64,000 nucleotides of DNA. Origin: Chthonomonadaceae bacterium. Lineage in GTDB: Bacteria; Armatimonadota; Chthonomonadetes; Chthonomonadales; Chthonomonadaceae. Each line of letters opens with the position of its first letter. Positions within the stretch are counted from its first letter, which is position 1. Below, piece by piece: positions 20,713-61,523 of the stretch. The DNA lies in the NCBI GenBank assembly GCA_965246955.1, contig CBDFGA010000004.1:1888100-1952099 (forward strand), given 5' to 3'. The translations under genes were made by a program, and so were the position numbers. The notes under the pieces were generated by a model, which had not been told where the DNA came from, searched no databases, and saw only the letters and a list, made by a program, of their open reading frames with translations.

Positions 20713-20722
20713 AGACTGCGCA

Positions 20723-20836
20723 GGGTGTCGGGGTTCGGGTGTCGGGTGTCGAAAAATGCGCTCGCTATCGAAACTTAGTACAGGCTTTGATTGCATGAGA
20801 ATTGTCCGACACCCGACACCCGAACCCCGACACCCT
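20723..20836. repeat. MITE-like element, family B (GGTGTCG heptad arms), copy 1
   Basis: Arms ggtgtcggggttcgggtgtcgggtgtcg / cgacacccgacacccgaaccccgacaccc. Fills the pilB-pilC gap and overlaps the pilB stop. Confidence 0.85.
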
Positions 20837-22568
20837 ATTCTCCTTCCTGGACGCCCAGAACGCGCCCGACCTCTTCCAGCGTGGTGACGCCGAGGACGAC
20901 TTTGCGGACGCCCGCTTCCTTCATTGTTTTCATTCCCTGCCGGACGGCGGTATCGAAGAGCGTGGCGCTCGATTCGCGGCGCAGCGTCAGGTCGCGCAGC
21001 TCGTCGCTCATCGGCATCACTTCGTAGACGGCGGTGCGGCCTTTCATGCCCCGATTATTGCACTTCTGACAGCCGCGCCCCTGCGCCAGCATCGTCGCGA
21101 AGCCTTCGGTGCGGGGCAGGCCCAGCGCGTCAAGGGTGGCGTCGGAGGCGGGAATGTCTTCGCGGCAGTTGGCGCAGACCGTGCGCACAAGCCGCTGCGC
21201 GATCACGCATTGCAGCGCGGACGCAATCAGAAACGGTTCCACGCCCATATTCGTCAGGCGGGAGATCGCTCCGGGCGCGTCGTTAGTGTGCAGCGTGGAC
21301 AGCACGAGGTGACCGGTCAGCGCCGCCTGAATCGCAATCTCCGCCGTTTCCCGGTCGCGGATTTCGCCCACCATGATAATATCGGGGTCTTGCCGGACGA
21401 GGGTGCGCAGGCCGCTCGCAAAGGTCACGCCGATTTTCGCGTCCACCTGCGTATGGTTGACGCCGGGAATCATGTATTCTACCGGGTCTTCCACCGTGCT
21501 GATATTGATATTGGGGTTGTTGATTCGGAAGAGACCGGCCTGAAGCGTGGTGCTTTTGCCGCTGCCCGTCGGCCCCGTCACTAAAATCATGCCGTGCGGC
21601 CTGCGAATAAACTGATCGAAAACTTTGAACTGCTCCGGGAAAAATCCCATCTGCTCTAAGTTCGTCTGCTTTTTGTTGCGCTCCAGGATGCGGATGACGA
21701 CTTTTTCGCCGTAGATCGTCGGCATAATCGAGACGCGCAGATCGTTTTCGCGCCCGCTGTTTTTGTACAGGATGCGCCCGTCCTGCGGGCGGCGGCGCTC
21801 GGCGATATTCATGCGCCCCATGATTTTGATGCGCGACGCGATGGCGGAGCGGTAGTTGACCGGGATATTCATCTGCTCATATAGCAGGCCGTCAATGCGG
21901 TAGCGGATGCGGATGCAGTCCTCGCCCGGTTCGATATGGATGTCGCTAGCGTCGCTGGAGACGGCGCTGGCGATGATATTGCTGACGAGTTTGACAACCG
22001 GCGCGTCCTCCGCGCTGCGCATGAGTTCGTCTTCGCTCTCGCCAAAATCGGCATCCATGCCCGGAATGACGGCGGACTCGGAGATTTCCCGCAGGATCGC
22101 CTGCGCCCTTCCGTTGACATTGAAAATCCGGTTAATGGCGTCGTTGAGGTCGTTGTCAAAGGCCAGCACCGGCGTGATATGCCGATTGAGCAGAGCGGAG
22201 AGTTCGTCAATCGCCCCTAAGTCCAGCGGGTCGGACATGGCGACGATGATATCTTCGCCCCGGTCTGCTATGGGCAGGGCGTGGAGGCGGCGGGCGCGGG
22301 GTTCTCCGGCAAGTCGGGCGGCGTCGGCCTCGATAGGCCAGTCGCTGAGTTCGACGAATCGGCATTTGGTCGCGGCCTCGATGTAGCGTCCGAGGACGGG
22401 GGCGGCGACGCAGCCCATTTGCAGCAGGGTCTCACCGAGGCGCTGCCGGGTCTGAGTTTGGCGGGCGCGGGCTTCCTGAAGCTGCTCCGTCGTAAGCAGT
22501 CCGTCCGCGACGAGCTGCTCTCCGAGATGACTGCTCCGGTTGTAGAAGGGTTTCAGGCTTTCAAGCAT
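20835..22568 (-). CDS. pilB: Type IV pilus assembly / T2SS ATPase PilB/GspE
   Basis: Walker A GPTGSGKST, Asp box, His box, CxxC tetracysteine motif, N-terminal GSPII domain. Confidence 0.95.
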   Translation of the reverse strand: MLESLKPFYNRSSHLGEQLVADGLLTTEQLQEARARQTQTRQRLGETLLQMGCVAAPVLGRYIEAATKCRFVELSDWPIEADAARLAGEPRARRLHALPIADRGEDIIVAMSDPLDLGAIDELSALLNRHITPVLAFDNDLNDAINRIFNVNGRAQAILREISESAVIPGMDADFGESEDELMRSAEDAPVVKLVSNIIASAVSSDASDIHIEPGEDCIRIRYRIDGLLYEQMNIPVNYRSAIASRIKIMGRMNIAERRRPQDGRILYKNSGRENDLRVSIMPTIYGEKVVIRILERNKKQTNLEQMGFFPEQFKVFDQFIRRPHGMILVTGPTGSGKSTTLQAGLFRINNPNINISTVEDPVEYMIPGVNHTQVDAKIGVTFASGLRTLVRQDPDIIMVGEIRDRETAEIAIQAALTGHLVLSTLHTNDAPGAISRLTNMGVEPFLIASALQCVIAQRLVRTVCANCREDIPASDATLDALGLPRTEGFATMLAQGRGCQKCNNRGMKGRTAVYEVMPMSDELRDLTLRRESSATLFDTAVRQGMKTMKEAGVRKVVLGVTTLEEVGRVLGVQEGE

Positions 22569-25280: not shown

Positions 25281-25294
25281 ACTGCGCAAAAAAT

Positions 25295-25450
25295 CTATCC
25301 ACGAAACGACACGAAGGGACACGAAACAAGAGAACAGAAGAAAGGGAAAAGGCGACAGGAAAAAGAAATTCGATCTTTACCCTGTCCACCCTGCAAACCC
25401 CGCTCCTCCTGTCTCTTCTTCGTGTCCCTTCGCGTCATTTCGTGGATAGA
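25295..25450. repeat. MITE-like element, family C, copy 2
   Basis: ctatccacgaaacgacacgaagggacacgaaa ... ttcgtgtcccttcgcgtcatttcgtggataga. Confidence 0.85.
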
Positions 25451-25639: not shown

Positions 25640-26164
25640 ATGCTGGGAAACACGAAAAACGACAAAACGATTTGTAAACAAAGGACGCTGGATGCGACCG
25701 ACCATCAGATTTTGCGCCTGCTCCACGCAGACGGACGCAGGACGCAGGAGAGCATCGCGCACGAGGTTTTCCTTTCCCGCCCCGCCGTCCATGATCGGGT
25801 GAAGCGGCTGGAAGAAACGGGTGTGATTACGGGCTATCAGGCGCAGATTGACTGGCGTAAAGTCGGGCAGGCCCTTTCCCTCTTTGTCTGGGTGCGCACT
25901 TCGGGCGGCAAACTCCACGATCTCGCGGACGCAATTATGACGTTCAGCAACCGCGATACGCTGGTTGAGGAGTGCCACCTCATCACCGGCGACTGGTGTC
26001 TGTTGCTGAAAGTTCGCACCGTCTCCACCACTTCCCTGCAAATTTTGCTTAACCGCCTGCGTGATATGCCCCGCGTCCGCAACACCATGACGACGCTCGT
26101 TCTGTCCTCTGCCGGCGAGAATTTTACCGAAATAGAAACGCAGGATGAGCTATCCACGAAATGA
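25640..26164 (+). CDS. lrp: Lrp/AsnC family transcriptional regulator
   Basis: HTH_AsnC N-terminus (LDATDHQILRLLHADGRRTQESIAHEV) plus RAM domain. Last codons (ELSTK) come from the repeat C3 arm. Confidence 0.85.
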   Translation: MLGNTKNDKTICKQRTLDATDHQILRLLHADGRRTQESIAHEVFLSRPAVHDRVKRLEETGVITGYQAQIDWRKVGQALSLFVWVRTSGGKLHDLADAIMTFSNRDTLVEECHLITGDWCLLLKVRTVSTTSLQILLNRLRDMPRVRNTMTTLVLSSAGENFTEIETQDELSTK

Positions 26165-26276
26165 CACAAAAGAACACGAAAAAAGGGAAGAGGGAAGAAA
26201 ATGCAACCCTAATCCTGAAAAATCCTGTTCATCCTCTCTATTCTTCTTCGTGTCGCTTCGTGTCATTTTGTGGATA
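26150..26276. repeat. MITE-like element, family C, copy 3
   Basis: ctatccacgaaatgacacaaaagaacacgaa ... ttcgtgtcgcttcgtgtcattttgtggataa. Inner aatcctgaaaaatcctgt. Confidence 0.85.
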
Positions 26277-28697: not shown

Positions 28698-28940
28698 ATG
28701 AACACTCGAATTGCAGGCCTGTTTTCGGCCCTGACGCTGTTCGGCGTCCTGACGGTCTCCTCGTCCTTCGCGCAGGACAAAATGGGCAAAATGGACAAGA
28801 TGTCCCACAAAGGCAAAATGGGCCACTCCAAAATGGCGCATAAAGGCAAAATGATGCACGGCAAAATGTCCCACAAGGGCAAAATGATGCACGGCAAGAT
28901 GAGCCATTCCAAAATGTCCCACGACAAAATGAAGAAATAG
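28698..28940 (+). CDS. Small secreted Met/His/Lys-rich repeat protein (putative periplasmic metal-binding protein)
   Basis: Signal peptide ending FAQD, then about eight HKGKM/SHxKM repeats. AAAGGA SD 8 nt upstream of ATG. Confidence 0.7.
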   Translation: MNTRIAGLFSALTLFGVLTVSSSFAQDKMGKMDKMSHKGKMGHSKMAHKGKMMHGKMSHKGKMMHGKMSHSKMSHDKMKK

Positions 28941-42843: not shown

Positions 42844-42845
42844 AG

Positions 42846-42958
42846 GGGGTCGGGGTTCGGGTGTCGGGTGTCGAAAAACAAGCTTGTATGCTGAACGTTT
42901 GTAACAATTTCAAGCGAACAAGGCATTGCTCGACACCCGACACCCGAACCCCGACACC
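42846..42958. repeat. MITE-like element, family B, copy 2
   Basis: ggggtcggggttcgggtgtcgggtgtcg ... cgacacccgacacccgaaccccgacacc. Solo arm-like fragment also at 48630-48660. Confidence 0.85.
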
Positions 42959-42970
42959 TGTTTTGGAGAA

Positions 42971-44608
42971 ATGGCAATGATCTGGACTCTCCTCGCTCTG
43001 GTCAGCATGATTGCGCTGGGCGGGTTCATCTCGTATTACGGCGATTTGCAGGGGCGGCGCTGGGGCAAAAAGCGCGTGTCGTGGTTCGGCCTGCGTCCCA
43101 AACATACTGCGATTGTGATTACGAGTATTACCGGCGCGTTTATTGCGCTGTTTAGCATCGTGACGGTGCTGCTGATTGCCCCGCCGGTGCGCCGAATTGC
43201 CCTGCACGGCGAGCAGGCGATCCGCGACAATCAAGACCTCAACGCGCAGTACGAGCGCAAAAACCGCGATTACGAGAACATACTGCGCGAAAAATCGGTG
43301 CAGGAAGCGACGGCGCGGGCGAAATATAACACCCTGAATCTGGACTTGCAGCAGGCCACAAAGGAACTCCGCGAGACCCAGCAGCAAAAGACTGACAGCC
43401 AGCGGCAATTAGACGCGCTGTTCACCAAAAACAAGGCGTTGCAGGTCAGTTTCTACCAGACCGAACGCGACTTGAAGCAGCGGCAGGTCAAAATCGCCGC
43501 GTTGGAGCGGGAAGGCGCGGCGCTGACGCGGCAAAAAATGGCGCTGAATCGCAGTATCGCCGACCTGAACAAGACGATTGCGGCGGAAACGTTCACGAAC
43601 CGCAGCGTCGGCAAACAGAATTACGACCTGGTGCGGCAGCGGACGGCGTTGGAGGCCGCGACGAAACTGCTAACCGAAAAGAACGCCGCGCTCATTACGC
43701 TCAAAACCGGGCTGGAAAAAGACGCGGCGGAACTGAACCACAAAAACCAAATTTTGCTCGATTCTAACAAGATGCTGCTCGACGCCAACGCGGATACGCA
43801 GCGGCAAAACGAGGCCGAAGCGCGGAAATTAGAGGAGAAGATTCAGCAGCTAACCGCCCAGCGCGATCAGCTCTACGGACTGCTGCAAAACGCGGACGGC
43901 ACGAATGACCGCTACGCCGCCCTGCGGCAGCGGCCCATCGTCCTCCATTCCGGCGAGATGCTGGCGCGGCGAACACTTGACGCCCATCTCGGCGAAGCGG
44001 CGGTGCGGCGCGAACTTCAAGAACTGATGAACGACGCGAACGCGGTGGCCCTGCTGCGCGGCGCGGGGCGCGGCGAAAACGGACGCACCGTCATGCTGTT
44101 CAATCACCGGAACGTGGCCCTTGCCGGTTCGCAGGCGTCGGACGAACGCTCGACCCTCGACGCGCTGGTAGAGAAATTGACCGGACTGAACGCCCCCGCG
44201 CTTCTCTCTGCGAACACGCTGGCGAACACGGTCACAGGCGAACAGGCGCTCCTTGATTTCACCGCGCAGCCCATTGTCCCGACGTTTCGCAAGGGCGAGG
44301 TAGTGGCGCAGTCTGGCGTGATTGACGGCGGCAGACCAATCCGTCAAATGATCGAATCCATCGTGCAGTTTTTGCAAAGCGACGTGCGGGATGCGGCCCT
44401 GAAACGCGGCGCGACACCGCAGATTGACCCCGCAACCGGCGCGAAACAGGTGGGCGCGTTCGGCCCCGCCGACCTCGTGGAATTGACCGATAAAGTGCGG
44501 CGGACGGGCGGAAAAGTCACGATTACGGCGGTCGCGGCCCAATCCCTGAACTCGGCGGAACCGCTGCGCCTCACCTTCCGCGTCGCTCGCCTGCAAAAAG
44601 ACCTATGA
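42971..44608 (+). CDS. DUF3084-family membrane-anchored coiled-coil protein
   Basis: N-terminal TM, GDLQGRRWGKKRVSWFGLRPKHTA motif typical of DUF3084, about 300 aa of coiled coil. Confidence 0.7.
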   Translation: MAMIWTLLALVSMIALGGFISYYGDLQGRRWGKKRVSWFGLRPKHTAIVITSITGAFIALFSIVTVLLIAPPVRRIALHGEQAIRDNQDLNAQYERKNRDYENILREKSVQEATARAKYNTLNLDLQQATKELRETQQQKTDSQRQLDALFTKNKALQVSFYQTERDLKQRQVKIAALEREGAALTRQKMALNRSIADLNKTIAAETFTNRSVGKQNYDLVRQRTALEAATKLLTEKNAALITLKTGLEKDAAELNHKNQILLDSNKMLLDANADTQRQNEAEARKLEEKIQQLTAQRDQLYGLLQNADGTNDRYAALRQRPIVLHSGEMLARRTLDAHLGEAAVRRELQELMNDANAVALLRGAGRGENGRTVMLFNHRNVALAGSQASDERSTLDALVEKLTGLNAPALLSANTLANTVTGEQALLDFTAQPIVPTFRKGEVVAQSGVIDGGRPIRQMIESIVQFLQSDVRDAALKRGATPQIDPATGAKQVGAFGPADLVELTDKVRRTGGKVTITAVAAQSLNSAEPLRLTFRVARLQKDL

Positions 44609-48614: not shown

Positions 48615-48666
48615 GCGCTTACCCTCTGATGCCCAATACCCGACCCCCGAACCCCGACGCCCGTTC

Positions 48667-49464
48667 CTACTTCGTCGCCCGCCAGTAGCTGCGCAGGCCA
48701 ATCACGAGAACGATCAGCGCGGTCGCCGCCCAGATTGCTCCCCACAGCGTTGCGGGCAGGGCGTAGGTCTTCGCCATATTGCCTGCGTCGTTCTGCATCT
48801 CGCCGCCCGTCGTCAGCGAAAGCAGGATGCCGATGTCGCTGATGGCGTTCAGGCTGCACTGCACCGCGATAAAAGCGGCGGCAAAATTCGCGGCGGCGGG
48901 CGAAAGGAAACGCGCCAGCGCAAAACAGGCTGCCGATAGTCCAAACCCGACCGCCAGCGTAAAGGGATCGTGCCAGCCCCACAGCAGGGTAATCAGCGCA
49001 AGGGCGGCGGACGCGAAATACAGCGCCGTCCTTCCAGGAGCCTGCAATTTCCGCAGCCGCCCGACTTGCAGCATGACCGCGCCGAAAATCGCCGTGCCGA
49101 GGTAGCCCGCCGAATCAATGACCCACGCGCTCAGGAAATTTTGCGTCGCCATCGTGACGCCCTCGCCGTTGGGCTTAATCGCCAGCGAAGCGACGTGATT
49201 GCCCGTCAGCAGCGCCGCCAGCGCATGACCGCTCTCGTGAACAAACGTGATGAACAGCCGCAGCGGGTACAGCAAAACCGTGTTGATTCGGTACATCGTC
49301 AGTCCGACATTTGCCCCGAAGACATAACCCAGCACGAACGGCGCAAACATCAGGGCGAGCGCGGCAAGCGTCGCGCCGAGCAGCAGGTTCCGGGCCTTGC
49401 GTCCGTGTTCGCCCCGTCCCGCGTCCGTCGTGTTAATCAGCGTCAATGGATTTTCGTTTTGCAT
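48667..49464 (-). CDS. M50-family (site-2-protease-like) membrane metallopeptidase
   Basis: HESGHAL HExxH motif inside a TM helix, multiple TM segments. Confidence 0.7.
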   Translation of the reverse strand: MQNENPLTLINTTDAGRGEHGRKARNLLLGATLAALALMFAPFVLGYVFGANVGLTMYRINTVLLYPLRLFITFVHESGHALAALLTGNHVASLAIKPNGEGVTMATQNFLSAWVIDSAGYLGTAIFGAVMLQVGRLRKLQAPGRTALYFASAALALITLLWGWHDPFTLAVGFGLSAACFALARFLSPAAANFAAAFIAVQCSLNAISDIGILLSLTTGGEMQNDAGNMAKTYALPATLWGAIWAATALIVLVIGLRSYWRATK

Positions 49465-49589: not shown

Positions 49590-49700
49590 CATGCAGAAAA
49601 GCCCCCTGCTTGAAAGACGCTTGATGTTGCGTGTTGGGTTGAATTGGATAATTATGAAACACCCGGCAACCCTGCCAAAACTGCCCGCATAAAAAATAAT
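49590..49700 (+). promoter_or_regulatory. Conserved leader element L, copy 1 (partial)
   Basis: gaaagacgcttg...ggataattatgaaacacccggcaaccctgccaaaactgcccgcataaaaaataatt. Near-identical to 50690-50772 and 57530-57600. Confidence 0.55.
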
Positions 49701-49725
49701 TCCATTTTTGTCACTATTCACCGCG

Positions 49726-49830
49726 TCCTTGCCACTCGCGCCGGAATGAAAAGCGTGGCGTCTCCCTCCGTCACTCTCTACGGCGCTCCGACCGGCGTTG
49801 TCCTGACGCTATCGAAAGCGGCGCAAGCGA
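49726..49830 (+). pseudogene. Orphan 3' fragment homologous to the C-terminus of the 53880-54530 gene
   Basis: TRAGMKSVASPSVTLYGAPTGVVLTLSKAA versus ARRAGMASVASPAITLYGANVGVVLTLAKAA. No upstream body or start. Confidence 0.45.
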
Positions 49831-49863
49831 AACTAAACGCCCTTGCCATGAAAAAAGCCGAAC

Positions 49864-49900
49864 GCGAAGAAAGGCTTCGCGTTCGGCCTATGCAATGCGG
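49864..49900. terminator. Bidirectional hairpin (gccgaacgcgaag/cttcgcgttcggc)
   Basis: 12-bp perfect stem. Paralogous hairpin at 55655-55692. Confidence 0.6.
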
Positions 49901-49909
49901 GCGCGGCGG

Positions 49910-50083
49910 TTACGATGCCTTGCGCTGTTCCTGAGCCATCTTTTGTTCTTCGCGCATGATCGCCGTTCGTTTCGCCCAGTACGCCAGTTCTTCTTCGGGC
50001 GTCATTCCTGCTGTGCGGGCCTGAATAATTTCCTGCGCCTTGTCTTTCATCTCTACGCAGTCAAACGCTTTGTTCTTTTTCAT
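49910..50083 (-). CDS. Small charged protein, partner of PIN protein (copy A)
   Basis: 57 aa, MKKNKAFDCVEMKDKAQEII...EEQKMAQEQRKAS. Paralogue at 55706-55876. Overlaps the PIN gene end. Confidence 0.5.
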   Translation of the reverse strand: MKKNKAFDCVEMKDKAQEIIQARTAGMTPEEELAYWAKRTAIMREEQKMAQEQRKAS

Positions 50084-50546
50084 TGGTAACCTCCGGCGGC
50101 GAATGAATCGCCACGCTGTTGTAGCCATACAGAGCATTGATGGCGTTGAAACGCTGAATCTTGGAGAACCGCACGATATGCCGAAAATTCCAACTGACAA
50201 TCAGTTCGCAGTCGTTAACAGTAGCGACAGCAACGTGCAGGGCATCGGCAGCAGATTTGGCGGCAAGGATACCCGCATCAAGATACGCTTTTCGCAACGC
50301 CTGCGCTTCGGCAGTAATGTCTACGGTTTCGGCGTAGGTTTTCATCTGCGCATACAACGCCTGCACTTCAAGCGGCGCAGTGGCAATCTCCTCGTCTAGA
50401 GGCGCCGTAACAACGAGCGCGAACTTCCCGCTTTTGACCTCTTCAAAAAAGGCGCGGCTTGCGGCCTCGAATTCCACGTCCACAATGCCGCCGAAAACGG
50501 TGGTGTCGGCATAGGCGCGAATGGAATGTTGGCGAAAGAGCATCAT
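50061..50546 (-). CDS. PIN-like (VapC-like) nuclease domain protein (copy A)
   Basis: Acidic residues at strand ends (AYADTTVF, FEEV, DEEI, DALHVAVA, SWNF) consistent with PIN fold. Toxin-first gene order. Confidence 0.5.
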   Translation of the reverse strand: MMLFRQHSIRAYADTTVFGGIVDVEFEAASRAFFEEVKSGKFALVVTAPLDEEIATAPLEVQALYAQMKTYAETVDITAEAQALRKAYLDAGILAAKSAADALHVAVATVNDCELIVSWNFRHIVRFSKIQRFNAINALYGYNSVAIHSPPEVTNEKEQSV

Positions 50547-50649
50547 TTCGTTCCTCTGCGACGCGCTGCTCTGCGTCCCATTTTCCTTTATTATACAGCA
50601 TAAAATCGCGCCGTCCTCACAAATCTTCCGCGCTACGCAAAATCTACCG

Positions 50650-50772
50650 CCGCAGAAACGCTTGCGGAATGGCGCGTCTGAAAGACGCTTGTTTTTTCTA
50701 GCCGGGTATGTATTGAATAGGAAACACCCGGAAACCCCGCCGAAACTGCCCGCATAAAAAATAATTTACTTT
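50650..50772 (+). promoter_or_regulatory. Conserved leader element L, copy 2 (full), upstream of PEP-CTERM gene
   Basis: cagaaacgcttgcggaatggcgcgtctgaaagacgcttgttttttc (hairpin + T-run) then ...gaaacacccggaaaccccgccgaaactgcccgcataaaaaataattt. Confidence 0.6.
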
Positions 50773-50867
50773 TTTTCGTTGAAAAGGTGTTTCCCGTTCA
50801 ATTTGGCACACATCTTGCAATATACAGACTTGACGAGCAAAATGCCGCCAAAAGGAAACCTACTGTC

Positions 50868-51782
50868 ATGAACCGAAACCTGAAGAACACCATCGCGCTC
50901 GGAGCGTTCGCCCTGCTCGGCCTTACCAGCGCCGCCAACGCGCAGAACGTCGTCAAAACCTTCAACTACACCGGCGACTATCAGACATTCACTGTTCCTT
51001 CCGATGTCAACAACATTTTCGTTCGGCTTTGGGGCGCAGGCGGGGGTAGTGGCGTCAGTAGCGCCGGTATCTTCGTCGGGGGAAGCGGCGGCGCATTTGT
51101 TTCCGGTGTTTTAAGTGTAACACCGGGCAGTACTTTTACTCTGCTTGTGGGCGGCGGCGGTGTTGGTAACAAAGGTGGCTTCGGTGGAGGCGGTTCCGGC
51201 GCCAGTGGAGGGGGCGGACGATCTGCGCTTATGGTCAATACAATCGAGTTGGTTGATGCGGGCGCAGGCGGCGGCGGAAACTTTAGTGGTGGAGCAGGCG
51301 GTGTATTGATAGGTCAGGCAGGCGGGGACAGTTTTGCGGGGGGCGGCGGTGGCGGCGGAACACAGAACGCAGGGGGCGCAGGTGGTCTTGGGCGGCCTGA
51401 TAACGGGCAGAGCGGCAGTCAATTTCAGGGAGGAAGCAATATCTTTTGCGGCGGCGGCGGCGGCGGTTATTATGGCGGTGGCAGCGGTGGGACGGACACT
51501 GATGGCAATGGTAGCGGCGGCGGCGGCGGTTCTTCCTACATTAGCGGCCTTGCGAGCATCGGAAATACGCAGGATGGCAATGGCGCTACTCCTGGAGGCA
51601 TGAGCGACCCCTACTATCTATCCAACGTCGGCGTGGGCGGAAACCATGCTAGTGGTGGCAATGGCGAAATTGTCTTTGCTTACTCGTCCTCTATTGCCGC
51701 CACGCCTGCCCCTTCCTCTCTGCTCGTTGCACTTGGTGGGATTGTTTCGGGCGTCGGGGTTCTTCGCAGGCGGCGCAAATAG
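50868..51782 (+). CDS. Glycine-rich secreted protein with PEP-CTERM-type sorting tail
   Basis: Signal peptide, GGxGG-rich body. C-terminus ATPAPSSLLVALGGIVSGVGVLRRRRK (TM + RRRRK). Confidence 0.8.
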   Translation: MNRNLKNTIALGAFALLGLTSAANAQNVVKTFNYTGDYQTFTVPSDVNNIFVRLWGAGGGSGVSSAGIFVGGSGGAFVSGVLSVTPGSTFTLLVGGGGVGNKGGFGGGGSGASGGGGRSALMVNTIELVDAGAGGGGNFSGGAGGVLIGQAGGDSFAGGGGGGGTQNAGGAGGLGRPDNGQSGSQFQGGSNIFCGGGGGGYYGGGSGGTDTDGNGSGGGGGSSYISGLASIGNTQDGNGATPGGMSDPYYLSNVGVGGNHASGGNGEIVFAYSSSIAATPAPSSLLVALGGIVSGVGVLRRRRK

Positions 51783-51804
51783 GTTCCATTCTTCGCGGGA
51801 TTTG

Positions 51805-51843
51805 GGGCCGCGCTTTTCCTCTGCTTTGGGGAAAGCGCGGCCC
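51805..51843 (+). terminator. Conserved terminator-like palindrome T (gggccgcgcttttcc..ggaaagcgcggccc), copy 1
   Basis: Recurs at 52485-52524 and 58706-58745. Variant at 54549-54585. Followed by cttgttg and a GTATAATA box. Confidence 0.6.
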
Positions 51844-51887
51844 TTGTTGCGGCGCATGGTATAATAAAAATAAATTGGGAGCGCGGC

Positions 51888-52175: not shown

Positions 52176-52383
52176 CCCGGAAAACCCGCCGATGACGGAA
52201 GCGCAGGCCAGAAAAGGCTGGGTTCGCCTGCCGGACGGGACGCGGATCGTTCCGGCGCGAATGGACGCTCCGACGTATCAATGGTTTATGTCGCAGGGGC
52301 AGGACATTCCCGCGCAGATCGAAGCGGCGCTGCGCGATTACGCGGCGGCGCGGCGGCGCGAACAGCCGCCGCAATCGGCCTGA
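52144..52383 (+). CDS. DUF4415/BrnA-like antitoxin
   Basis: PENPPMTEAQARKG motif typical of DUF4415 partners of BrnT. Overlaps toxin 3' end. Confidence 0.55.
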   Translation: MSMKSNKMDIDPENPPMTEAQARKGWVRLPDGTRIVPARMDAPTYQWFMSQGQDIPAQIEAALRDYAAARRREQPPQSA

Positions 52384-52463
52384 CGCCCGCGTCCTCCTCC
52401 ATTCTGGTTGTTTTGATTGGGGCGGTTCCGCTTATCGGGGCGCTTCGCAGGCGGCGCAAATAG
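52383..52463 (+). pseudogene. Orphan PEP-CTERM sorting-tail remnant (TPASSSILVVLIGAVPLIGALRRRRK)
   Basis: Homologous to the tails at 51702-51782 and 58605-58685. Followed by the same palindrome T. No protein body upstream; the BrnT/antitoxin pair sits there instead. Confidence 0.65.
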
Positions 52464-52484
52464 GTTCGTTTCCTTGCGGGCTTT

Positions 52485-52524
52485 GGGACCGCGCTTTTCC
52501 TCTGCTTCGGGGAAAGCGCGGCCC
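52485..52524 (+). terminator. Palindrome T, copy 2
   Basis: gggaccgcgcttttcctctgcttcggggaaagcgcggccc. Downstream -10 gcgtataatag at 52546. Confidence 0.6.
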
Positions 52525-52604
52525 TTGTTGTTGCGGGCGGAAATAGCGTATAATAGAAGTGGAACATTCGCCTGCTTGCAGGCAACGACGAAAGGACGCC
52601 GCGC

Positions 52605-53348: not shown

Positions 53349-53385
53349 ACGCCCTGCGCGAAGGAAACGGCGCGGGGCGTTTACT

Positions 53386-53501
53386 CCGCCCTCCGCAATC
53401 GGGTACAATATATCGCTATTGAACAAAGACGTTCCGCCGCACTCATCTCCATTCATTTTGACGGCGAGGGCGAACAAAGGATACCGAAAGCGATGACCGC
53501 C
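53386..53501 (+). promoter_or_regulatory. Duplicate of the ppdK promoter/leader including its ATGAC start
   Basis: About 90% identical to 58752-58870 (ccgccctccgcaatcgggtacaatatatcgctattgaacaaagacgttccgccgcactc...gaacaaaggataccgaaagcgATGac). Here it leads only to a 12-codon ORF. Confidence 0.65.
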
Positions 53502-55625: not shown

Positions 55626-55654
55626 CCCCCAATCCCCGCCCTGAATAGAAAAGC

Positions 55655-55692
55655 CGAACGCGAAGCCCTTCTTCGCGTTCGGCTCATAATCT
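55655..55692. terminator. Bidirectional hairpin (gccgaacgcgaag/cttcgcgttcggc), copy 2
   Basis: Shared by the convergent aspartic-protease and PIN modules. Confidence 0.6.
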
Positions 55693-55705
55693 ACGGGCGC
55701 GGCGG

Positions 55706-55876
55706 TTACGACGCCTTGCGCTGTTCCAGCAGGGCCTGTTGCTTTTCGCGCAGTTCCCGGTTCCGCCGGTTCCAGTAAGCCGCTTCTTCTTCCGGCGTCA
55801 TGGTTTCCAGTTTCGCCTGCAATTTTGCCGCGCCTTTGCGCTTCATCTCCACACAATCGAAAGGCTTATTCTCCAT
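55706..55876 (-). CDS. Small charged partner protein of PIN (copy B)
   Basis: MENKPFDCVEMKRKGAAKLQ...EKQQALLEQRKAS, paralogue of 49910-50083. Confidence 0.5.
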   Translation of the reverse strand: MENKPFDCVEMKRKGAAKLQAKLETMTPEEEAAYWNRRNRELREKQQALLEQRKAS

Positions 55877-56339
55877 CTTTGATAACCTCCGGCGGCGAAT
55901 GAATCGCCACACTCCGATAGCCGTACAAGGCATTGACGGCGTTGAAACGCTGAATTTTGGAATAGCGCACAATGTGATTGAAGTTCCAGCTGACAATCAG
56001 TTCGCAATCGGCAACGCTCGCCGTCGCGACGTGCAGGGCATCCGTTGCGGATTTAGCGGTCAGGATGCCCGCCTTGAGATATTCTGCCTGCAAAGCCCTC
56101 GCTTCGTCCGTGACCAGCACAACTTCCGCGTAAGTTACCATCTCCTGAAACAAATTCTGCACTTTGAGCGGCGCGTCGGCGATTTCGTCTTCCACAGGCG
56201 CCGCAATCACAAGCGCAAAACCTCCGTTGGGCGCCTCATCGAAAAAGGCGCGGCTTGCCGTCTCGAACTCAACATCCACAATGCCGCCAAAGACCGTTGT
56301 TTCCGCATAGACGCGAATGGGATGCTGGCGAATGTTCAT
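55866..56339 (-). CDS. PIN-like nuclease domain protein (copy B)
   Basis: About 70% identical to copy A. Promoter box ctgtagaataaagga on the minus strand upstream. Confidence 0.5.
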   Translation of the reverse strand: MNIRQHPIRVYAETTVFGGIVDVEFETASRAFFDEAPNGGFALVIAAPVEDEIADAPLKVQNLFQEMVTYAEVVLVTDEARALQAEYLKAGILTAKSATDALHVATASVADCELIVSWNFNHIVRYSKIQRFNAVNALYGYRSVAIHSPPEVIKDGE

Positions 56340-56474
56340 GGTTTCAATCCTCTCCGGCGCGATACCCTGCGTCCCATTTTCCTTTATTCTACAGCATAAG
56401 TCCGCGCCGCCGTTCCGGGCGGCGAAAATGGAGTATAATAAAGCAGAGAAATCTTCGGACGGGAGAATGGACGC

Positions 56475-57387: not shown

Positions 57388-57494
57388 TCGTTCTCCATGA
57401 AAACAGAAACGCCCGAACGCCCGCGCTTATCCTTTATTATACAGCATAAATCCGCGCCGCCGTTCCAAATTTTCCACCCTGTGCAAAATTCACC

Positions 57495-57605
57495 GCCGCA
57501 GAAACGCTTGCGGAATGGCGCGTCTGAAAGACGCTTGTTTTTTCCTGCCGGGCTGAATTTGGTAATTATGAAACTCCCGGCAACCCCGGCAATAAAAAAA
57601 ATTTC
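57495..57605 (+). promoter_or_regulatory. Conserved leader element L, copy 3, upstream of NHL PEP-CTERM gene
   Basis: cagaaacgcttgcggaatggcgcgtctgaaagacgcttgttttttc...ggtaattatgaaactcccggcaaccccggcaataaaaaaaattt. Confidence 0.6.
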
Positions 57606-57725
57606 TCCTGATGAAACTATCAGCCCGCCGCGCTCGTAAAATCCATGAGGCAAGCAAATAAAGGCCCTGCGCCCGCTTCCCGCGATTTCACCGGCAGTAA
57701 CGATTCAGGAAAGGTAGACCCGAAA

Positions 57726-58685
57726 ATGCGCAACCTCGTCCGCAACGCCTTCGCGCTCATAGCGCTTGCCCTGCTCGGCACAGCAAACGCCAATGCGCAA
57801 ACATACGTTTTTGACAGCAACATAGGCAATCCCTATAACGGTAGCAATAGCAACGGGCACCTGTTTTACCCTAGAGGTGTCGCGGTAGACGGTAACGGTA
57901 ACGTTTTTGTCGCAGACGGTTCCGATGGTGGTGTTGAGGAATTCAACAGCGGTGGAACGTTCATCCGCAATATCGGCGTTTCAGGCAGTGGTCAGTTGGA
58001 TTACGCTGGTAGTGTCGCTGTTGATGGCAACGGCAATTTATATGTGGCGGACGGTACCAACAACCGAATTGTGGAGTTTAATAATAGCGGCGCGTTCGTC
58101 CGCAATATCGGTACTTCTGGTACAAGCAATGGACAGTTGATCTCGCCTACCAGTGTTGTACTAGATAACAGCGGGAATCTGTATGTCGCGGACTCTGGCA
58201 ACAATCGCATAGAGGAATTTAACCAAAATGGCGGATTTGTTCGCGCCATTAGTAATACGTCCTTCCAAAATCCACAGGGCGTCGCACTAGACAAAAGCGG
58301 CAATATCTACATCGTAGACAATGGCATTGATGAATTGAATAGTAGCGGCACGTTTGTTCGTTACATCGGGGCTGGAAAGGTGTTCGATCCTAGCGGCGTC
58401 ATCTTAGATCGCAGTGGTAATATCTATGTTGCAGATTTGGATACGCAACTTTCGGAGTTCAATAGCGCAGGCAACTTTGTCCAAACTGTCGGCTTTGGAT
58501 ATTTGGTTAGGCCTTTTGGTCTTGCGTTTGATGGAAGCAACAATCTTTACGTTGGGGACATAAACAACCAGTACGTGACAAAGTTCCGTAACACTTCCGC
58601 CGCTACTCCTGCGCCTTCCTCTGTTCTGATTGTTCTGCTTGGGGCGGTTCCGCTTGTCGGGGTGCTTCGCAGGCGGCGCAAGTAG
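57726..58685 (+). CDS. NHL-repeat beta-propeller protein with PEP-CTERM-type sorting tail
   Basis: Signal peptide. Six NHL-like repeats (GN.YVAD..NNRI.EF). Tail ATPAPSSVLIVLLGAVPLVGVLRRRRK. Confidence 0.85.
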   Translation: MRNLVRNAFALIALALLGTANANAQTYVFDSNIGNPYNGSNSNGHLFYPRGVAVDGNGNVFVADGSDGGVEEFNSGGTFIRNIGVSGSGQLDYAGSVAVDGNGNLYVADGTNNRIVEFNNSGAFVRNIGTSGTSNGQLISPTSVVLDNSGNLYVADSGNNRIEEFNQNGGFVRAISNTSFQNPQGVALDKSGNIYIVDNGIDELNSSGTFVRYIGAGKVFDPSGVILDRSGNIYVADLDTQLSEFNSAGNFVQTVGFGYLVRPFGLAFDGSNNLYVGDINNQYVTKFRNTSAATPAPSSVLIVLLGAVPLVGVLRRRRK

Positions 58686-58705
58686 GCTTGTTTCCTCGCA
58701 GGCTT

Positions 58706-58745
58706 TGGGGCCGCGCTTTTCCTCGGCTTTGGGGAAAGCGCGGCC
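58706..58745 (+). terminator. Palindrome T, copy 3
   Basis: ggggccgcgcttttcctcggctttggggaaagcgcggccc. Confidence 0.6.
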
Positions 58746-58751
58746 CTTGTT

Positions 58752-58865
58752 GTTTCCGCCCTCCGCAATCGGGTACAATATATCGCTATTGAACAAAGAC
58801 GTTCCGCCGCACTCCTTCTTTATGCATATTTTGACGGCGAGGACGAACAAAGGATACCGAAAGCG
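58752..58865 (+). promoter_or_regulatory. ppdK promoter/leader (original of the 53386-53501 duplicate)
   Basis: gggtacaatat -10-like box. gaacaaaggataccg SD-like stretch before ATG. Confidence 0.55.
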
Positions 58866-61523
58866 ATGACGAAACGAGTTTACCTGTTTGAAGAAGGCGA
58901 TAAGTCCATGCGCGACCTGCTCGGCGGCAAGGGCGCAAACCTCGCCGAAATGACCAAAATCGGCCTGCCCGTTCCCCCCGGCTTCACCATCACCACCGAC
59001 ACCTGCAACGAATACTACGCCAACGGCAAAACCCTGCCCGCCCCCCTCATGGACGAAGTTCTCACCGCCTTGTCCGACGTGGAGAACAAACTCGGCAAGA
59101 AGTTCGGCGAGGTTGGCAATCCTCTCCTGCTTTCCGTGCGTTCCGGCGCCCGCTTTTCCATGCCCGGCATGATGGACACCGTGCTGAACCTCGGCCTCAA
59201 CGACGCCATTATCGCCCAACTCGTGACCGTGACCGACCCGCGCTTTGTCTACGATTCCTACCGCCGCTTCATTATGATGCTCTCCGACGTGGCCTATTCC
59301 GACAAGTTCGACCACATGAGCAAGCACGATTTCGAGCATCTTTTCGCCGACCTCAAGACCGAACTCGGCGTGAAGGAAGACCTCGAAGTCAGCGCGGACG
59401 GCCTCAAGACCCTGTGCGAGCGCTACAAGGCGCACGTCCTCGCGCACATCGGAAGCGAATTTCCGCAAGACCCCACCATTCAGTTGCAGGCCGCGATTGA
59501 GGCCGTGTTCCGCTCGTGGAACAACGAACGCGCCTTCATCTACCGCCGCCGCGAAAAAATCTCCGACGACATCGGAACCGCCGTCAACGTGCAAAGCATG
59601 GTCTTCGGCAACATGGGCGAGGACTGCGGCACGGGCGTGGCCTTCACCCGCAACGCTTCCACCGGCGAGAACGTGGTCTTTGGCGAATACCTGATGAACG
59701 CGCAGGGCGAAGATGTGGTTGCGGGCGTCCGAACGCCCATGCCCATTGAGCAGCTTGCCAGCCAGAACCCGGAAATCTACAAGCAGTTTGATGAAGTGTG
59801 CAAGACGCTCGAAGGCCACTACAAGGATATGCAAGACATCGAGTTCACCATTGAGCATAACAAACTCTTCATCCTGCAATGCCGAAGCGGAAAGCGCACC
59901 GGCCCCGCCGCCGTGAAAATCGCGGTAGATCAAGTCGCTGAAGGCCTAATCACGAAAGAGGAAGCGATTGCCCGCGTGGAGCCGGAACTCCTCAACCACT
60001 GCCTGCTTCCGGTAATTCCGCAGAACACGAAGTACAACGTCCTCGCCAAAGGACTGCCCGCCGGCCCCGGTGCGGCGACGGGCATTGCGATTTTTGACGC
60101 GGAGCGCGCGGCGGAACTCGGCAAGGGCGGTTTAGGCCAGAAGGTCATTCTCGTTCGCGCCGACACCAGCCCCGACGACCTCAAAGGGATGCTGGCGGCG
60201 CAGGGCGTCCTGACGGAAAAGGGCGGCATGACCTCCCACGCGGCGCTCGTGGCGCGCGGCTTCGGCATCCCCACGGTTGCGGGCTGTTCCGAAATCGCCG
60301 TTGACGCGGGCAAGCGGCAGTTCACGGTAAACGGGCAGACCGTGAAAGAGGGCGACGAAATTTCGCTCAACGGCACCCTGGGCGAAGTCATTCTTGGCGG
60401 CGTCCCGGTGGAAGACGCGAAACTGACCGGCGAATTCGGCACGTTCCTCGGCTGGGCGGACGAAATGCGAACGCTCGGAATCCGCACGAACGCCGACACT
60501 CCCAAAGACACCGAACTCGCCATCAAATTCGGCGCTGAAGGCATTGGCCTGTGCCGCACGGAGCATATGTTCTTCGCCGAAGAGCGCCGCCCCGTCGTAC
60601 AGCGCATGATCCTCGCCAAAGACGAGGCCACCCGGCAGGCCGCGCTTGACGAACTGCTTCCCTTTCAGCGCGAGGACTTCAAGGGCATTTTCGAGGCGCT
60701 CGAAGGCCGTCCCGCCACCATCCGCCTGATTGACCCGCCCCTCCATGAGTTCCTGCCCAACATGGAAGAACTCATCGAGGAGATCGCCACCCTCCACGCG
60801 CAGGGCAAGTCCGATCCCGCCAAAGAGGAAATGCTCACGGCGGTCAAGTCCATGCACGAGATCAACCCGATGATGGGACTGCGCGGCTGCCGCCTCTCGA
60901 TTGTGTTCCCCGGCATCGTCGTGATGCAGACGCGGGCCATCCTCGAAGGCGCGGCGGCGGTCATCAAAGCGGGCGGCGCGGCCCACCCGGAGATTATGAT
61001 CCCCCTCGTCGGACACGTCAACGAACTCAAGACCGTGCGCGAAGGGCTGGAAAAGACAGCGAAAGCGGTGGAAGCGGAACAGGGCATCACGATCCCCTAC
61101 CAGTTCGGCACCATGATTGAAGTGCCTCGCGGCGCCCTGACCGCGGATGAAATCGCCCCCGAAGCGGAGTTCTTCTCGTTCGGAACGAATGACCTGACGC
61201 AGATGACGTTCGGCTTCTCCCGCGACGACAGCGACAAGTTCCTCAAGCCCTATGTGGCGCAGAAAATCCTTGCCGTTGATCCGTTCGAGAGCATTGACCA
61301 AAGCGGCGTGGGTCTGCTGATGGAGATGGCGGTGGCGAAAGGGCGGGGCGTGAAGCCGGGGCTGAAGATGGGCATTTGCGGCGAACACGGCGGCGAACCG
61401 CGTTCCATCGCCTTCTGCCACAAGATCGGCCTCAACTACGTGAGTTGTTCGCCCTACCGGGTTCCGATAGCGCGGCTTGCGGCGGCGCAGGCGGCCCTCG
61501 GCAAAGGCGTCAGCGACAAGTAG
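58866..61523 (+). CDS. ppdK: Pyruvate, phosphate dikinase
   Basis: 885 aa. PEP-utilising enzyme mobile His domain (GGMTSHAALVARGFGIP), N-terminal ATP-grasp, C-terminal TIM barrel (GICGE). Confidence 0.95.
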   Translation: MTKRVYLFEEGDKSMRDLLGGKGANLAEMTKIGLPVPPGFTITTDTCNEYYANGKTLPAPLMDEVLTALSDVENKLGKKFGEVGNPLLLSVRSGARFSMPGMMDTVLNLGLNDAIIAQLVTVTDPRFVYDSYRRFIMMLSDVAYSDKFDHMSKHDFEHLFADLKTELGVKEDLEVSADGLKTLCERYKAHVLAHIGSEFPQDPTIQLQAAIEAVFRSWNNERAFIYRRREKISDDIGTAVNVQSMVFGNMGEDCGTGVAFTRNASTGENVVFGEYLMNAQGEDVVAGVRTPMPIEQLASQNPEIYKQFDEVCKTLEGHYKDMQDIEFTIEHNKLFILQCRSGKRTGPAAVKIAVDQVAEGLITKEEAIARVEPELLNHCLLPVIPQNTKYNVLAKGLPAGPGAATGIAIFDAERAAELGKGGLGQKVILVRADTSPDDLKGMLAAQGVLTEKGGMTSHAALVARGFGIPTVAGCSEIAVDAGKRQFTVNGQTVKEGDEISLNGTLGEVILGGVPVEDAKLTGEFGTFLGWADEMRTLGIRTNADTPKDTELAIKFGAEGIGLCRTEHMFFAEERRPVVQRMILAKDEATRQAALDELLPFQREDFKGIFEALEGRPATIRLIDPPLHEFLPNMEELIEEIATLHAQGKSDPAKEEMLTAVKSMHEINPMMGLRGCRLSIVFPGIVVMQTRAILEGAAAVIKAGGAAHPEIMIPLVGHVNELKTVREGLEKTAKAVEAEQGITIPYQFGTMIEVPRGALTADEIAPEAEFFSFGTNDLTQMTFGFSRDDSDKFLKPYVAQKILAVDPFESIDQSGVGLLMEMAVAKGRGVKPGLKMGICGEHGGEPRSIAFCHKIGLNYVSCSPYRVPIARLAAAQAALGKGVSDK

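What the first reader, a model, noticed from the sequence alone, without database searches (positions are those of the whole stretch)
50650..50772. Conserved about 120-nt leader element upstream of PEP-CTERM genes (three copies)
Copies at 49590-49700 (truncated), 50650-50772 and 57495-57605 share two parts. The first is a terminator-like hairpin (gcgcgtctgaaagacgc + T6). The second is a block ..(g)ataattatgaaacacccggcaaccc.gcc.aaactgcccgcataaaaaataatt ending about 95-120 nt before the start codon of a PEP-CTERM gene. Copy 1 instead ends at an orphaned gene fragment. PEP-CTERM genes are typically co-regulated with the exosortase system, so this may be the cis-element (promoter or 5' UTR structure) for that regulon. 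A sigma-54-like GG-N9-GC spacing is present but imperfect.
Basis: partly seen in the sequence, partly recalled or inferred. Interest (0 to 1): 0.6.

Follow-up and report, generated by a model that had tools for sequence, protein, structure and literature searches.

The report
Sigma-54 promoter module before surface-protein genes
The repeated ~120-nt sequence is real, but it is not an RNA leader: it is the upstream half (terminator, repeat block, A/T tract) of a duplicated promoter cassette whose best-kept core is a textbook sigma-54 promoter in front of PEP-CTERM-type surface-protein genes of an Armatimonadota bacterium.

Summary
The three copies exist at about the stated coordinates and exceed chance. 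Only c2 (50674-50772) is intact. c1 lacks the left hairpin arm and abuts a gene fragment. In c3 everything 3' of 57604 is replaced by unique sequence.

Seven more copies were recovered from closely related Armatimonadota contigs. Across these and c2, conservation peaks over CGCCRAAACCGCCCGCATAAAAAA...GTTCAAGTTGGCAC-N5-TTGCW and decays 5' of it. The inverted repeat erodes in some copies, its loop is deleted in two, and no compensatory changes occur. All eight sigma-54-bearing copies sit 48-113 nt before a PEP-CTERM-type gene. A more distant relative has an independent perfect sigma-54 site before its PEP-CTERM gene.

Best reading: a terminator/insulator, a putative activator-binding and bending region, and a sigma-54 promoter, copied together with swappable surface-protein genes. 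This parallels the proteobacterial PEP-CTERM sigma-54 region (Haft 2006) but uses a different upstream motif. Whether the lineage has rpoN could not be tested. No Rfam match was found.

The parts
50581..50620 (-). 40-nt module 'D11' (TTTCCTTTATTATACAGCATAAA...). On the minus strand it reads TATAAT at 50595-50590, 35 nt before the ATG (50546) of a PIN-like toxin gene. It is a neighbour of the element, not part of the PEP-CTERM cassette.
   Evidence: There are three copies (50581, 56377, 57427), each just upstream of a minus-strand toxin-antitoxin operon. It is absent from relatives' cassettes that follow a co-directional gene.
50650..50667 (+). Small hairpin CCGCAgaaacgctTGCGG. It belongs to the 5' extension variant found next to D11.
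   Evidence: Read from the sequence and present in the MFE fold. It is replaced by a different 5' extension in L003A, L007B, L008 and L009A/B.
50674..50697 (+). Intrinsic-terminator-like hairpin GCGTCTgaaAGACGC followed by TTGTTTTTT.
   Evidence: Terminator scan. Folds at -8 kcal/mol. 94% of cells are paired across 9 copies. It follows a co-directional gene in 5 relatives' copies.
50701..50731 (+). Inverted repeat GCCGGGT-N18-ACCCGG. The right arm is conserved; the left arm is variable.
   Evidence: The loop is deleted in L007B and L008. The stem is lost in L009B (-0.1 kcal/mol) and weak in L008. There are no compensatory changes.
50723..50753 (+). Three C-rich direct repeats at about 10-12 bp spacing: AACACCCGG / AAACCCCGCC / GAAACTGCCCGC. 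This is the candidate activator-binding region, 51-81 bp upstream of the -24 box.
   Evidence: Alignments. Repeat 3 and part of repeat 2 are retained even in the shortest copy, L003B. The binding function is inferred only.
50754..50787 (+). A/T-rich tract ATAAAAAATAATTTACTTTTTTTCGTTGAAAAGG, lying between the repeats and the promoter. It is a candidate bend or architectural-protein site.
   Evidence: Nearly invariant in all 8 complete copies. The function is inferred.
50786..50802 (+). GGTGTTTCCCGTTCAAT, an inverted copy of ATTGAATAGGAAACACC (50712-50728) that abuts the -24 box.
   Evidence: Inverted repeat I1: 17 nt, 88% complementary, 57 nt apart. The proximal arm is conserved in all 8 copies.
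50804..50819 (+). Sigma-54 (-24/-12) promoter TGGCACacatcTTGCA.
   Evidence: It is the only exact consensus match in the 64-kb window, against 0.08 expected. It is conserved in 7 relatives' copies. It ends 48 nt before the ATG at 50868.
50868..51782 (+). Glycine-rich secreted protein with a PEP-CTERM-type tail (T-P-A-P-S-S, transmembrane helix, RRRRK).
   Evidence: The tail scores 15.3 bits on TIGR02595 against a cut-off of 16.
57496..57604 (+). Copy c3. It has the small hairpin (57496-57513), the terminator (57520-57543), the inverted repeat GCCGGGC...TCCCGGC (57547-57581), repeats 1-2 and a shortened A-run. It has no sigma-54 site.
57605..57743 (+). Unique segment in c3 that replaces the A/T tract, the sigma-54 promoter, the 5' UTR and the first codons.
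   Evidence: No homolog in any locus. Homology to the other cassettes resumes at 57744, in the signal-peptide codons. The equivalent NHL gene in L007 has the full cassette.
57726..58685 (+). NHL-repeat protein with a PEP-CTERM-type tail.
   Evidence: Pfam NHL 1e-28. The tail scores 21.1 bits on TIGR02595, above the cut-off of 16.
49593..49712 (+). Copy c1, a remnant. The left arm of the terminator is lost. The inverted repeat (GTTGGGT...ACCCGGC), repeats 1-3 and the start of the A/T tract are kept. It is fused at about 49720 to an orphan 3' gene fragment (49720-49934).

Best explanation
The element is the distal part of a roughly 330-nt promoter cassette that is duplicated together with PEP-CTERM-type surface-protein genes in a hypervariable island next to ppdK, in an Armatimonadota lineage.

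From 5' to 3' the cassette holds:
1. An intrinsic terminator. It ends or insulates transcription coming from upstream.
2. An inverted repeat followed by three C-rich direct repeats. This is the proposed binding region for an enhancer-binding activator.
3. A conserved A/T tract, proposed as a DNA bend or architectural site.
4. A sigma-54 -24/-12 promoter.
5. A 5' UTR and the signal-peptide codons.

Transcription of the gene is predicted to start about 11-13 nt after the -12 GC, near 50830. The element itself would therefore not be part of the mRNA.

Shown: the copies, their anatomy, the conservation gradient, the sigma-54 consensus, and the association with PEP-CTERM-type genes.

Inferred: activator binding, bending, terminator activity, and the use of sigma-54 in this organism.
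For: - Copies and significance.
- Perfect sigma-54 site: TGGCAC-N5-TTGCA at 50804-50819, 0.08 expected per window.
- The same site is present in 7 further cassette copies from relatives (L003, L007, L008, L009). All lie 48-113 nt before the ATG of a PEP-CTERM-type gene with unrelated passenger domains.
- Independent case: CTGGCACGTTTCTTGCAAT lies 83 nt before a TIGR02595-positive gene in a relative with 90% PpdK identity. Its upstream DNA gave no match to the cassette by blastn or nhmmer.
- The conservation maximum lies over repeat 3, the A/T tract and the promoter.
- The terminator passes the scan, folds at -8 kcal/mol, and directly follows co-directional HNH, PIN_3 or other genes in 5 copies.
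- The layout matches the sigma-54 region described for proteobacterial PEP-CTERM genes (PMC1569441).
Against: - The presence of rpoN and of an enhancer-binding protein in this lineage was not tested. None lies in the window. The Fimbriimonas ginsengisoli genome paper lists only rpoD, rpoE and fliA.
- All copies are recent paralogs or orthologs at 80-96% identity, so conservation is weak evidence of function.
- One functional-looking cassette (L003B) lacks the terminator, the inverted repeat and repeat 1.
- c3 keeps the element but has no sigma-54 site, yet its gene is intact.
- There is no dyad typical of NtrC-type enhancers at a fixed distance.
Confidence: 0.55

Rival explanations
1. The element is a passenger flank with no regulatory role beyond an ordinary terminator. 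On this reading it is conserved only because whole gene cassettes were copied recently and are homogenised by gene conversion. The conserved 5' and 3' flanks mainly act as homology arms that let different passenger domains be swapped.
For: - c2 and c3 are 100% identical over about 52 nt but about 87% identical overall.
- Non-homologous passenger domains share the same 5' cassette and the same 150-nt 3' repeat.
- The island differs between strains at the same position. The window has an NHL gene with a remnant element, whereas L003 has a 243-aa gene with the core only.
- The left arm of the inverted repeat and the hairpins decay freely.
- L003B lacks the element.
Against: - The right arm and the C-rich repeats are clearly better kept than the left arm and loop within the same copies. 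This argues for some constraint.
- The element is retained even in remnants c1 and c3.
Confidence: 0.25
2. The element is a transcribed cis-regulatory RNA (an attenuator or riboswitch-like leader) or a small RNA. It would start near the D11 module and end at the hairpin plus U-run.
For: - A terminator-like hairpin lies in a long intergenic region with no co-directional upstream gene in c2, c3 and L007A.
- C-to-T changes in the left arm of the inverted repeat keep G-U pairs on the plus strand.
Against: - No Rfam match even at E <= 1.
- Folding z-scores are -0.47 (+ strand) and -0.40 (- strand).
- There are 0 compensatory pairs, and pairing is no better than in shuffles.
- No convincing plus-strand sigma-70 promoter lies upstream.
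- In 5 copies the hairpin simply follows another gene.
- A promoter lies downstream of the element.
Confidence: 0.07
3. The element is a mobile or recombination element, such as a MITE or an attC-like or other site-specific recombination site, that marks cassette boundaries in the island.
For: - The island is a mosaic of repeated modules, toxin-antitoxin pairs and HNH genes, with duplicated pieces of ppdK.
- The element contains inverted repeats.
Against: - There are no terminal inverted repeats or target duplications at consistent boundaries. The 5' and 3' ends differ between copies.
- No integrase or transposase lies next to the copies.
- No GTTRRRY-type core was seen when I read the copies by eye (no formal scan).
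- The orientation and distance to the downstream gene are always the same.
Confidence: 0.07
4. The conserved block is a minus-strand sigma-70 promoter (TTGGCA-16-CATAAT) that drives the divergent genes (M50 peptidase, PIN-like, HEPN).
For: The promoter scan gives hits at 49678-49651 (10 of 12) and 57592-57565 (9 of 12) on the minus strand.
Against: - There is no such hit in the intact copy c2.
- The -10 part lies in the loop that is deleted in L007B and L008.
- In 5 copies the upstream gene is co-directional, so such a promoter would fire antisense.
- The divergent genes have their own TATAAT in D11.
Confidence: 0.05

Closest known systems
Proteobacterial PEP-CTERM upstream cis-regulatory region (motif 1 + spacer + sigma-54 motif 2; PrsR/PrsK/PrsT), Haft et al. 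2006, PMC1569441
   Same: - Single PEP-CTERM genes are preceded by long non-coding regions that are similar to each other.
- A -24/-12 sigma-54 site lies tens of nt before the start codon. Here the distance is 48-113 nt; Haft reports a mean of 71.
- A conserved sequence lies upstream of that site, at enhancer distance.
   Different: - The phylum differs. This is Armatimonadota; Haft found the motif only in Proteobacteria.
- Motif 1 (a 17-mer ending in TTTACA, about 63 nt upstream) is not present. The upstream block here is C-rich repeats plus an A/T tract.
- No PrsR/PrsK/PrsT genes could be examined.
- The tails are mostly a P-A-P variant.
- A terminator is part of the unit.
Generic sigma-54 enhancer-dependent promoter architecture (upstream activator sites, IHF or bend, -24/-12)
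   Same: A perfect -24/-12 consensus is preceded by an A/T-rich tract and then by repeated sequence 50-130 bp upstream.
   Different: - No activator, no IHF consensus and no dyad-symmetric upstream site at a fixed distance were identified.
- The A/T tract abuts the promoter rather than sitting at about -50 to -70.
- The sigma factor itself is unverified in this lineage.
Rho-independent terminator
   Same: A 6-bp G+C-rich stem and a 3-nt loop are followed by TTGTTTTTT. In relatives the hairpin follows co-directional genes.
   Different: In the three window copies there is no co-directional upstream gene. The hairpin travels as part of the downstream gene's cassette.

Membership tests
Sigma-54 (-24/-12) promoter | GG and GC elements at the canonical spacing, with the consensus TGGCAC-N5-TTGCW | tested here: met
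There is an exact match at 50804-50819, the only one in the window, against 0.08 expected. Seven relatives' copies and an independent site in L004 also match. c1 and c3 have none.
Sigma-54 (-24/-12) promoter | The organism encodes RpoN and at least one AAA+ enhancer-binding protein | not testable with these tools
   No RpoN-box or GAFTGA protein lies in the 64-kb window. The F. ginsengisoli paper does not mention rpoN.
Sigma-54 (-24/-12) promoter | An upstream activator binding site 80-150 bp upstream | tested here: inconclusive
   Conserved C-rich repeats and an inverted repeat lie 51-103 bp upstream of the -24 box. There is no known motif and no fixed dyad, and one copy (L003B) lacks most of this region.
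Proteobacterial PEP-CTERM regulatory region (Haft 2006) | Motif 2 is a sigma-54 site before the PEP-CTERM gene | tested here: met
   The distance to the ATG is 48-113 nt, against the published mean of 71.
Proteobacterial PEP-CTERM regulatory region (Haft 2006) | Motif 1 is a 17-mer ending in TTTACA, about 63 nt (32-92) upstream of motif 2 | tested here: not met
   No TTTACA is present in the cassette. The nearest match is TTTACT, 33 nt upstream in some copies, and it reads TTCAC or TTCCC in others. The published logo itself could not be read because the figure is not held.
Proteobacterial PEP-CTERM regulatory region (Haft 2006) | Co-occurrence with PrsR/PrsK/PrsT; restricted to Proteobacteria | tested here: not met
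   The best named PpdK relatives are Armatimonadota / Fimbriimonadaceae. No such genes lie in the window. The rest of the genome was not testable.
Rho-independent terminator | A G+C-rich stem-loop followed directly by a U-run | tested here: met
   (-8 kcal/mol, TTGTTTTTT). 94% of cells are paired in 9 copies. It is not met in c1 (left arm lost) and is weakened in L008.
Rho-independent terminator | It lies at the 3' end of a co-directional transcription unit | tested here: inconclusive
   This holds in L003A, L007B, L008, L009A and L009B. It does not hold in c1, c2, c3 or L007A, where the neighbouring genes are divergent.
Structured cis-regulatory RNA (riboswitch, leader, attenuator) | A match to a described family, or covariation-supported structure within the transcript | tested here: not met
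   Rfam gave 0 hits at gathering threshold and at E <= 1. The z-scores are -0.47 and -0.40. No pairs change on both sides. The element lies upstream of the predicted promoter.
PEP-CTERM sorting domain (TIGR02595) on the downstream genes | A C-terminal P-E-P motif, a transmembrane helix and a basic cluster, scoring above the model cut-off (16 bits) | tested here: inconclusive
   The tails alone score 21.1 bits (gene 57726-58685) and 15.3 bits (gene 50868-51782). The motif is P-A-P, not P-E-P. Full-length window proteins gave no hit at E <= 0.01. Cassette-bearing genes in L009 with V-P-E-P tails pass, at 24.4 and 16.7 bits. The exosortase could not be checked.
MITE / insertion sequence / integron attC | Terminal inverted repeats with target duplications, or the R''-L''...L'-R' structure with a GTTRRRY core and a nearby integrase | tested here: not met
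   No terminal inverted repeats lie at the copy boundaries. The boundaries differ among copies. No integrase is annotated in the loci. The GTTRRRY core was looked for by eye only, not by a formal scan.

The most novel reading that the evidence does not exclude
An Armatimonadota lineage keeps a hypervariable island beside ppdK in which surface-protein genes are exchanged as cassettes. Each cassette lies between a conserved 5' arm (terminator, lineage-specific sigma-54 enhancer region, promoter, signal peptide) and a conserved 3' arm (sorting tail, strong terminator). On this reading the element is both the enhancer of a non-proteobacterial PEP-CTERM sigma-54 regulon and a homology arm for shuffling the surface repertoire.
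Probability: 0.25. Interest if true: 0.55.

Novelty: new variant of a known kind. Interest (0 to 1): 0.35.

Why it matters
Haft et al. (2006) found a shared sigma-54 regulatory region before PEP-CTERM genes only in Proteobacteria. They noted that other phyla must have motifs still to be found.

This cassette would be such a case in Armatimonadota, a barely studied phylum. It offers a concrete promoter, a candidate enhancer sequence and a predicted transcription start, all of which can be tested.

It also shows how surface-protein genes with unrelated passenger domains share identical regulatory and sorting flanks. That points to cassette exchange. The finding is useful but lineage-restricted, and mechanistically it is an extension of a known design.

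Tried and rejected
- **Genome-contig scan** with AAGACGC-N(22-50)-GAAACNCCCGGNAACCC gave only 2 hits, in Caulobacteraceae and Melioribacteraceae. That is about the number expected by chance, and they were not inspected.
- **Metagenome scan 1** with the two-part element pattern gave 0 hits.
- **Metagenome scan 2** with the promoter core gave 1 chance hit, inside a coding region of an AT-rich genome. The cassette is therefore absent from those collections at exact-pattern level.
- **Exact look-ups** of the two window proteins returned nothing on record.
- **A profile of signal peptide plus sorting tail** returned only short fragments. Two of them did lead to useful contigs, L006 and L007.
- **RNA readings:** Rfam gave nothing, folding z-scores were near zero, and there was no covariation.
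- **Minus-strand sigma-70 promoter** in the block was rejected. It is absent in c2, and its -10 lies in a loop that is deleted in two copies.
- **Sigma-70 or ECF readings** of the core were rejected, on reading the sequence by eye, because no hexamer pair has usable spacing.
- **MITE or attC reading** was rejected for lack of terminal repeats or consistent ends.
- **Sigma-54 sites before other PEP-CTERM genes** (L005, L006, L010, L012, L013, window gene 2) were sought and none was found.
- **Literature check for rpoN in Armatimonadota** found no statement either way.

Full report
**1. Observation**

Reading the window and running repeat detection confirm three copies. In what follows, c1 is about 49593-49712, c2 is 50581-50777 and c3 is 57427-57604.

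- The 17-mer GAAACACCCGGCAACCC occurs three times at up to 1 mismatch, against 0.29 expected.
- The hairpin plus T-run, GCGTCTGAAAGACGCTTGTTTTTT, occurs twice exactly, against 0 expected.
- The orphan fragment after c1 is also as described.
- Only two complete genes with a PEP-CTERM-type tail exist in the window, and both follow a copy.

**2. Organism and relatives**

PpdK (58866-61523) places the window in Armatimonadota, near Fimbriimonadaceae.

The element is absent from the GTDB representative genomes and the JGI metagenomes at exact-pattern level.

Contigs of close relatives were reached through proteins:
- L003: PpdK 99% identical.
- L007 and L009: low-coverage strains from the same ENA sample.
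- L008: from another sample.
- L004, L010, L012 and L013: a 4.86-Mb genome with PpdK 90% identical.
- L005: PpdK 91% identical.

Profile searches over about 285 kb found ten copies in total. All are in the island next to ppdK, and none is elsewhere.

**3. Anatomy**

The sequence is composite.

(a) *D11 module.* A 40-nt module (50581, 56377, 57427) always sits about 35 nt before minus-strand toxin-antitoxin genes (PIN-like or HEPN). It reads TATAAT on that strand. It is missing from cassettes that follow a co-directional gene, so it belongs to the neighbours.

(b) *Terminator hairpin.* A 6-bp hairpin plus U-run, folding at -8 kcal/mol.

(c) *Inverted repeat.* GCCGGGT...ACCCGG.

(d) *C-rich repeats.* Three direct repeats: AACACCCGG, AAACCCCGCC and GAAACTGCCCGC.

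(e) *A/T tract.* ATAAAAAATAATTTAC-T7-CGTTGAAAAGG.

This is a perfect sigma-54 -24/-12 consensus. It is the only one in the window, against 0.08 expected, and it ends 48 nt before the ATG at 50868.

**4. Comparison of copies**

Eight copies carry the sigma-54 site: c2, L003A, L003B, L007A, L007B, L008, L009A and L009B.

- Each lies 48-113 nt before the ATG of a secreted protein with a PEP-CTERM-type tail.
- The passenger domains are unrelated: glycine-rich, NHL, SGGS-repeat and others.
- Conservation is highest from repeat 3 through the A/T tract to the promoter, and it falls off 5' of that.
- L003B lacks parts (b), (c) and repeat 1 altogether.
- L007B and L008 have lost the loop of the inverted repeat.
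- L008 and L009B have lost most of its pairing, folding at -5 and -0.1 kcal/mol.
- Across nine copies no base pair changes on both sides, and pairing is no better than in shuffles.
- Whole-region folding is unremarkable on either strand, and Rfam finds nothing.

It lies upstream of the predicted transcription start, not in a leader.

The window's other two copies are rearranged remnants.
- c1 has lost the left terminator arm and is fused to a gene fragment.
- In c3 everything from the A/T tract to the first codons is replaced by 139 nt of unique sequence. No sigma-54 site lies there.
- The equivalent NHL gene in L007 has the full cassette.
- The 52-nt stretch of 100% identity between c2 and c3 is not shared by L007A. 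This points to gene conversion within the genome.

**5. Independent support for sigma-54**

In the relative with 90% PpdK identity, the PEP-CTERM gene beside ppdK (TIGR02595-positive) is preceded by CTGGCACGTTTCTTGCAAT, 83 nt before its ATG. Its upstream DNA gave no match to the cassette by blastn or nhmmer.

Other PEP-CTERM paralogs of that genome and of L005 instead carry sigma-70-type promoters (for example TTGACA-17-TATAAT) and share a different conserved 5' UTR. The sigma-54 cassette is therefore one of at least two promoter modules used by these gene families.

**6. Mechanism**

Best reading, with confidence 0.55:
- The terminator insulates the tightly controlled promoter or ends the upstream gene. 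It follows co-directional genes in five copies.
- The C-rich repeats and the inverted AAACNCC-type sites are candidate activator sites 51-103 bp upstream (one search shows a 17-nt inverted repeat, 50712-50728 with 50786-50802).
- The A/T tract is a candidate bend.
- Sigma-54 holoenzyme starts transcription near 50830.

Only the sequence features are shown. Binding, bending and the use of sigma-54 are inferred.

The main weakness is that rpoN could not be checked. None lies in the window. The Fimbriimonas genome paper lists rpoD, rpoE and fliA only.

The main rival (confidence 0.25) is that the distal element is a passenger flank, kept by recent duplication and gene conversion, that serves at most as a terminator and a homology arm.

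**7. Comparison with what is known**

Haft et al. [quoted passage not shown] It has a 17-nt motif ending in TTTACA, a spacer of about 63 nt and a sigma-54 site, and it is linked to PrsR/PrsK/PrsT.

The layout here is analogous. However, the phylum, the upstream motif and (as far as could be tested) the regulators differ, and most tails are a P-A-P variant. It therefore works like that system but is not a member of it. I rate it a new variant of a known kind.

**8. Verdict**

The element is a real cis-acting neighbourhood of PEP-CTERM-type genes. The flagged 120 nt are upstream of it, only partly conserved, and not an RNA leader. Interest is moderate (0.35).

Noticed in passing
window 50581-50620, 56377-56416, 57427-57466; L007 4517-4557 and 6239-6273; L003 6502-6541 and 7552-7592: A 40-nt module (TTTCCTTTATTATACAGCATAAATCCGCGCC...) lies about 35 nt upstream of minus-strand toxin-antitoxin operons of different families (PIN-like and HEPN). 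It reads TATAAT on the minus strand. It is probably a shared promoter or operator that moves with these cassettes.
   Followed up: partly
window 51702-51851, 52383-52532, 58605-58754: A 150-nt repeat covers the sorting-tail codons plus a strong terminator (GGGGCCGCGCTTTTCC...GGAAAGCGCGGCCC, 13-17 bp). The copy at 52383-52532 is an orphan tail with no gene body, placed after a BrnT/BrnA pair. Together with the 5' cassette it gives PEP-CTERM-type genes conserved arms on both sides.
   Followed up: partly
window 53385-53497 vs 58755-58870; L007 9172-9378; L003 12567-12770 and 17848-18492; L004 17878-18198; L005 9875-10444; L009 14160-14669: The ppdK promoter, 5' UTR and start are duplicated 5.4 kb upstream at 93% identity. 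In relatives, fragments of the ppdK N- and C-terminal coding regions are scattered on both sides of ppdK, among toxin-antitoxin, HNH and XisH/XisI genes. ppdK seems to be a hotspot where variable DNA is inserted with partial duplication of the gene ends.
   Followed up: partly
window 49853-50620 vs 55649-56416: A segmental duplication of about 770 bp (73-80% identity, constant offset of 5796) carries a PIN-like toxin, its small partner gene, a shared bidirectional-looking terminator and the D11 module.
   Followed up: partly
L010 9858-10000, L012 9857-10000, L013 9816-10000, L005 about 3480-3645: A second conserved module lies before PEP-CTERM genes in relatives. It has a sigma-70-type promoter (for example TTGACA-17-TATAAT) followed by a conserved 5' UTR (...GCAAGCCTGTCCGTGTTGTCCGTGCAGAC...GGAAGGAAA). 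This UTR could be a genuine RNA leader and was not analysed.
   Followed up: no
window 20722-20756, 42844-42878 (inverted copies at 20803-20858, 42927-42982, 48630-48685); 10261-10323, 25288-25350, 26143-26205 (inverted copies at 10375, 25414, 26242): Two families of short intergenic repeats occur in inverted pairs: GGGTGTCGGGGTTCGGGTGTCGGGTGTCG and CCACGAAACGACACGAAGGGACACGAAAAA. They look like REP-like or terminator-like elements scattered through the window.
   Followed up: no
window 28796-28922: A tandem 33-nt coding repeat (GGCAAAATGATGCACGGCAAAATGTCCCAC...) would encode a His/Lys/Met-rich repeat (GKMMHGKMSH).
   Followed up: no
window 57605-57743: A unique 139-nt segment replaces the promoter part of the cassette before the NHL gene. 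It has no homolog in any fetched locus and no recognisable sigma-54 site. The promoter of this intact gene is unknown.
   Followed up: partly
window 50868-51782 and 57726-58685; L003 1113-1877 and 7788-8519; L007 6570-7580: Most sorting tails in this lineage read T/V-P-A-P-S-S (or P-S-P) rather than P-E-P. They score at or just around the TIGR02595 cut-off. Neighbouring paralogs in L009 and L004 have canonical V-P-E-P-G-S tails. This may be a sub-type of exosortase signal.
   Followed up: partly
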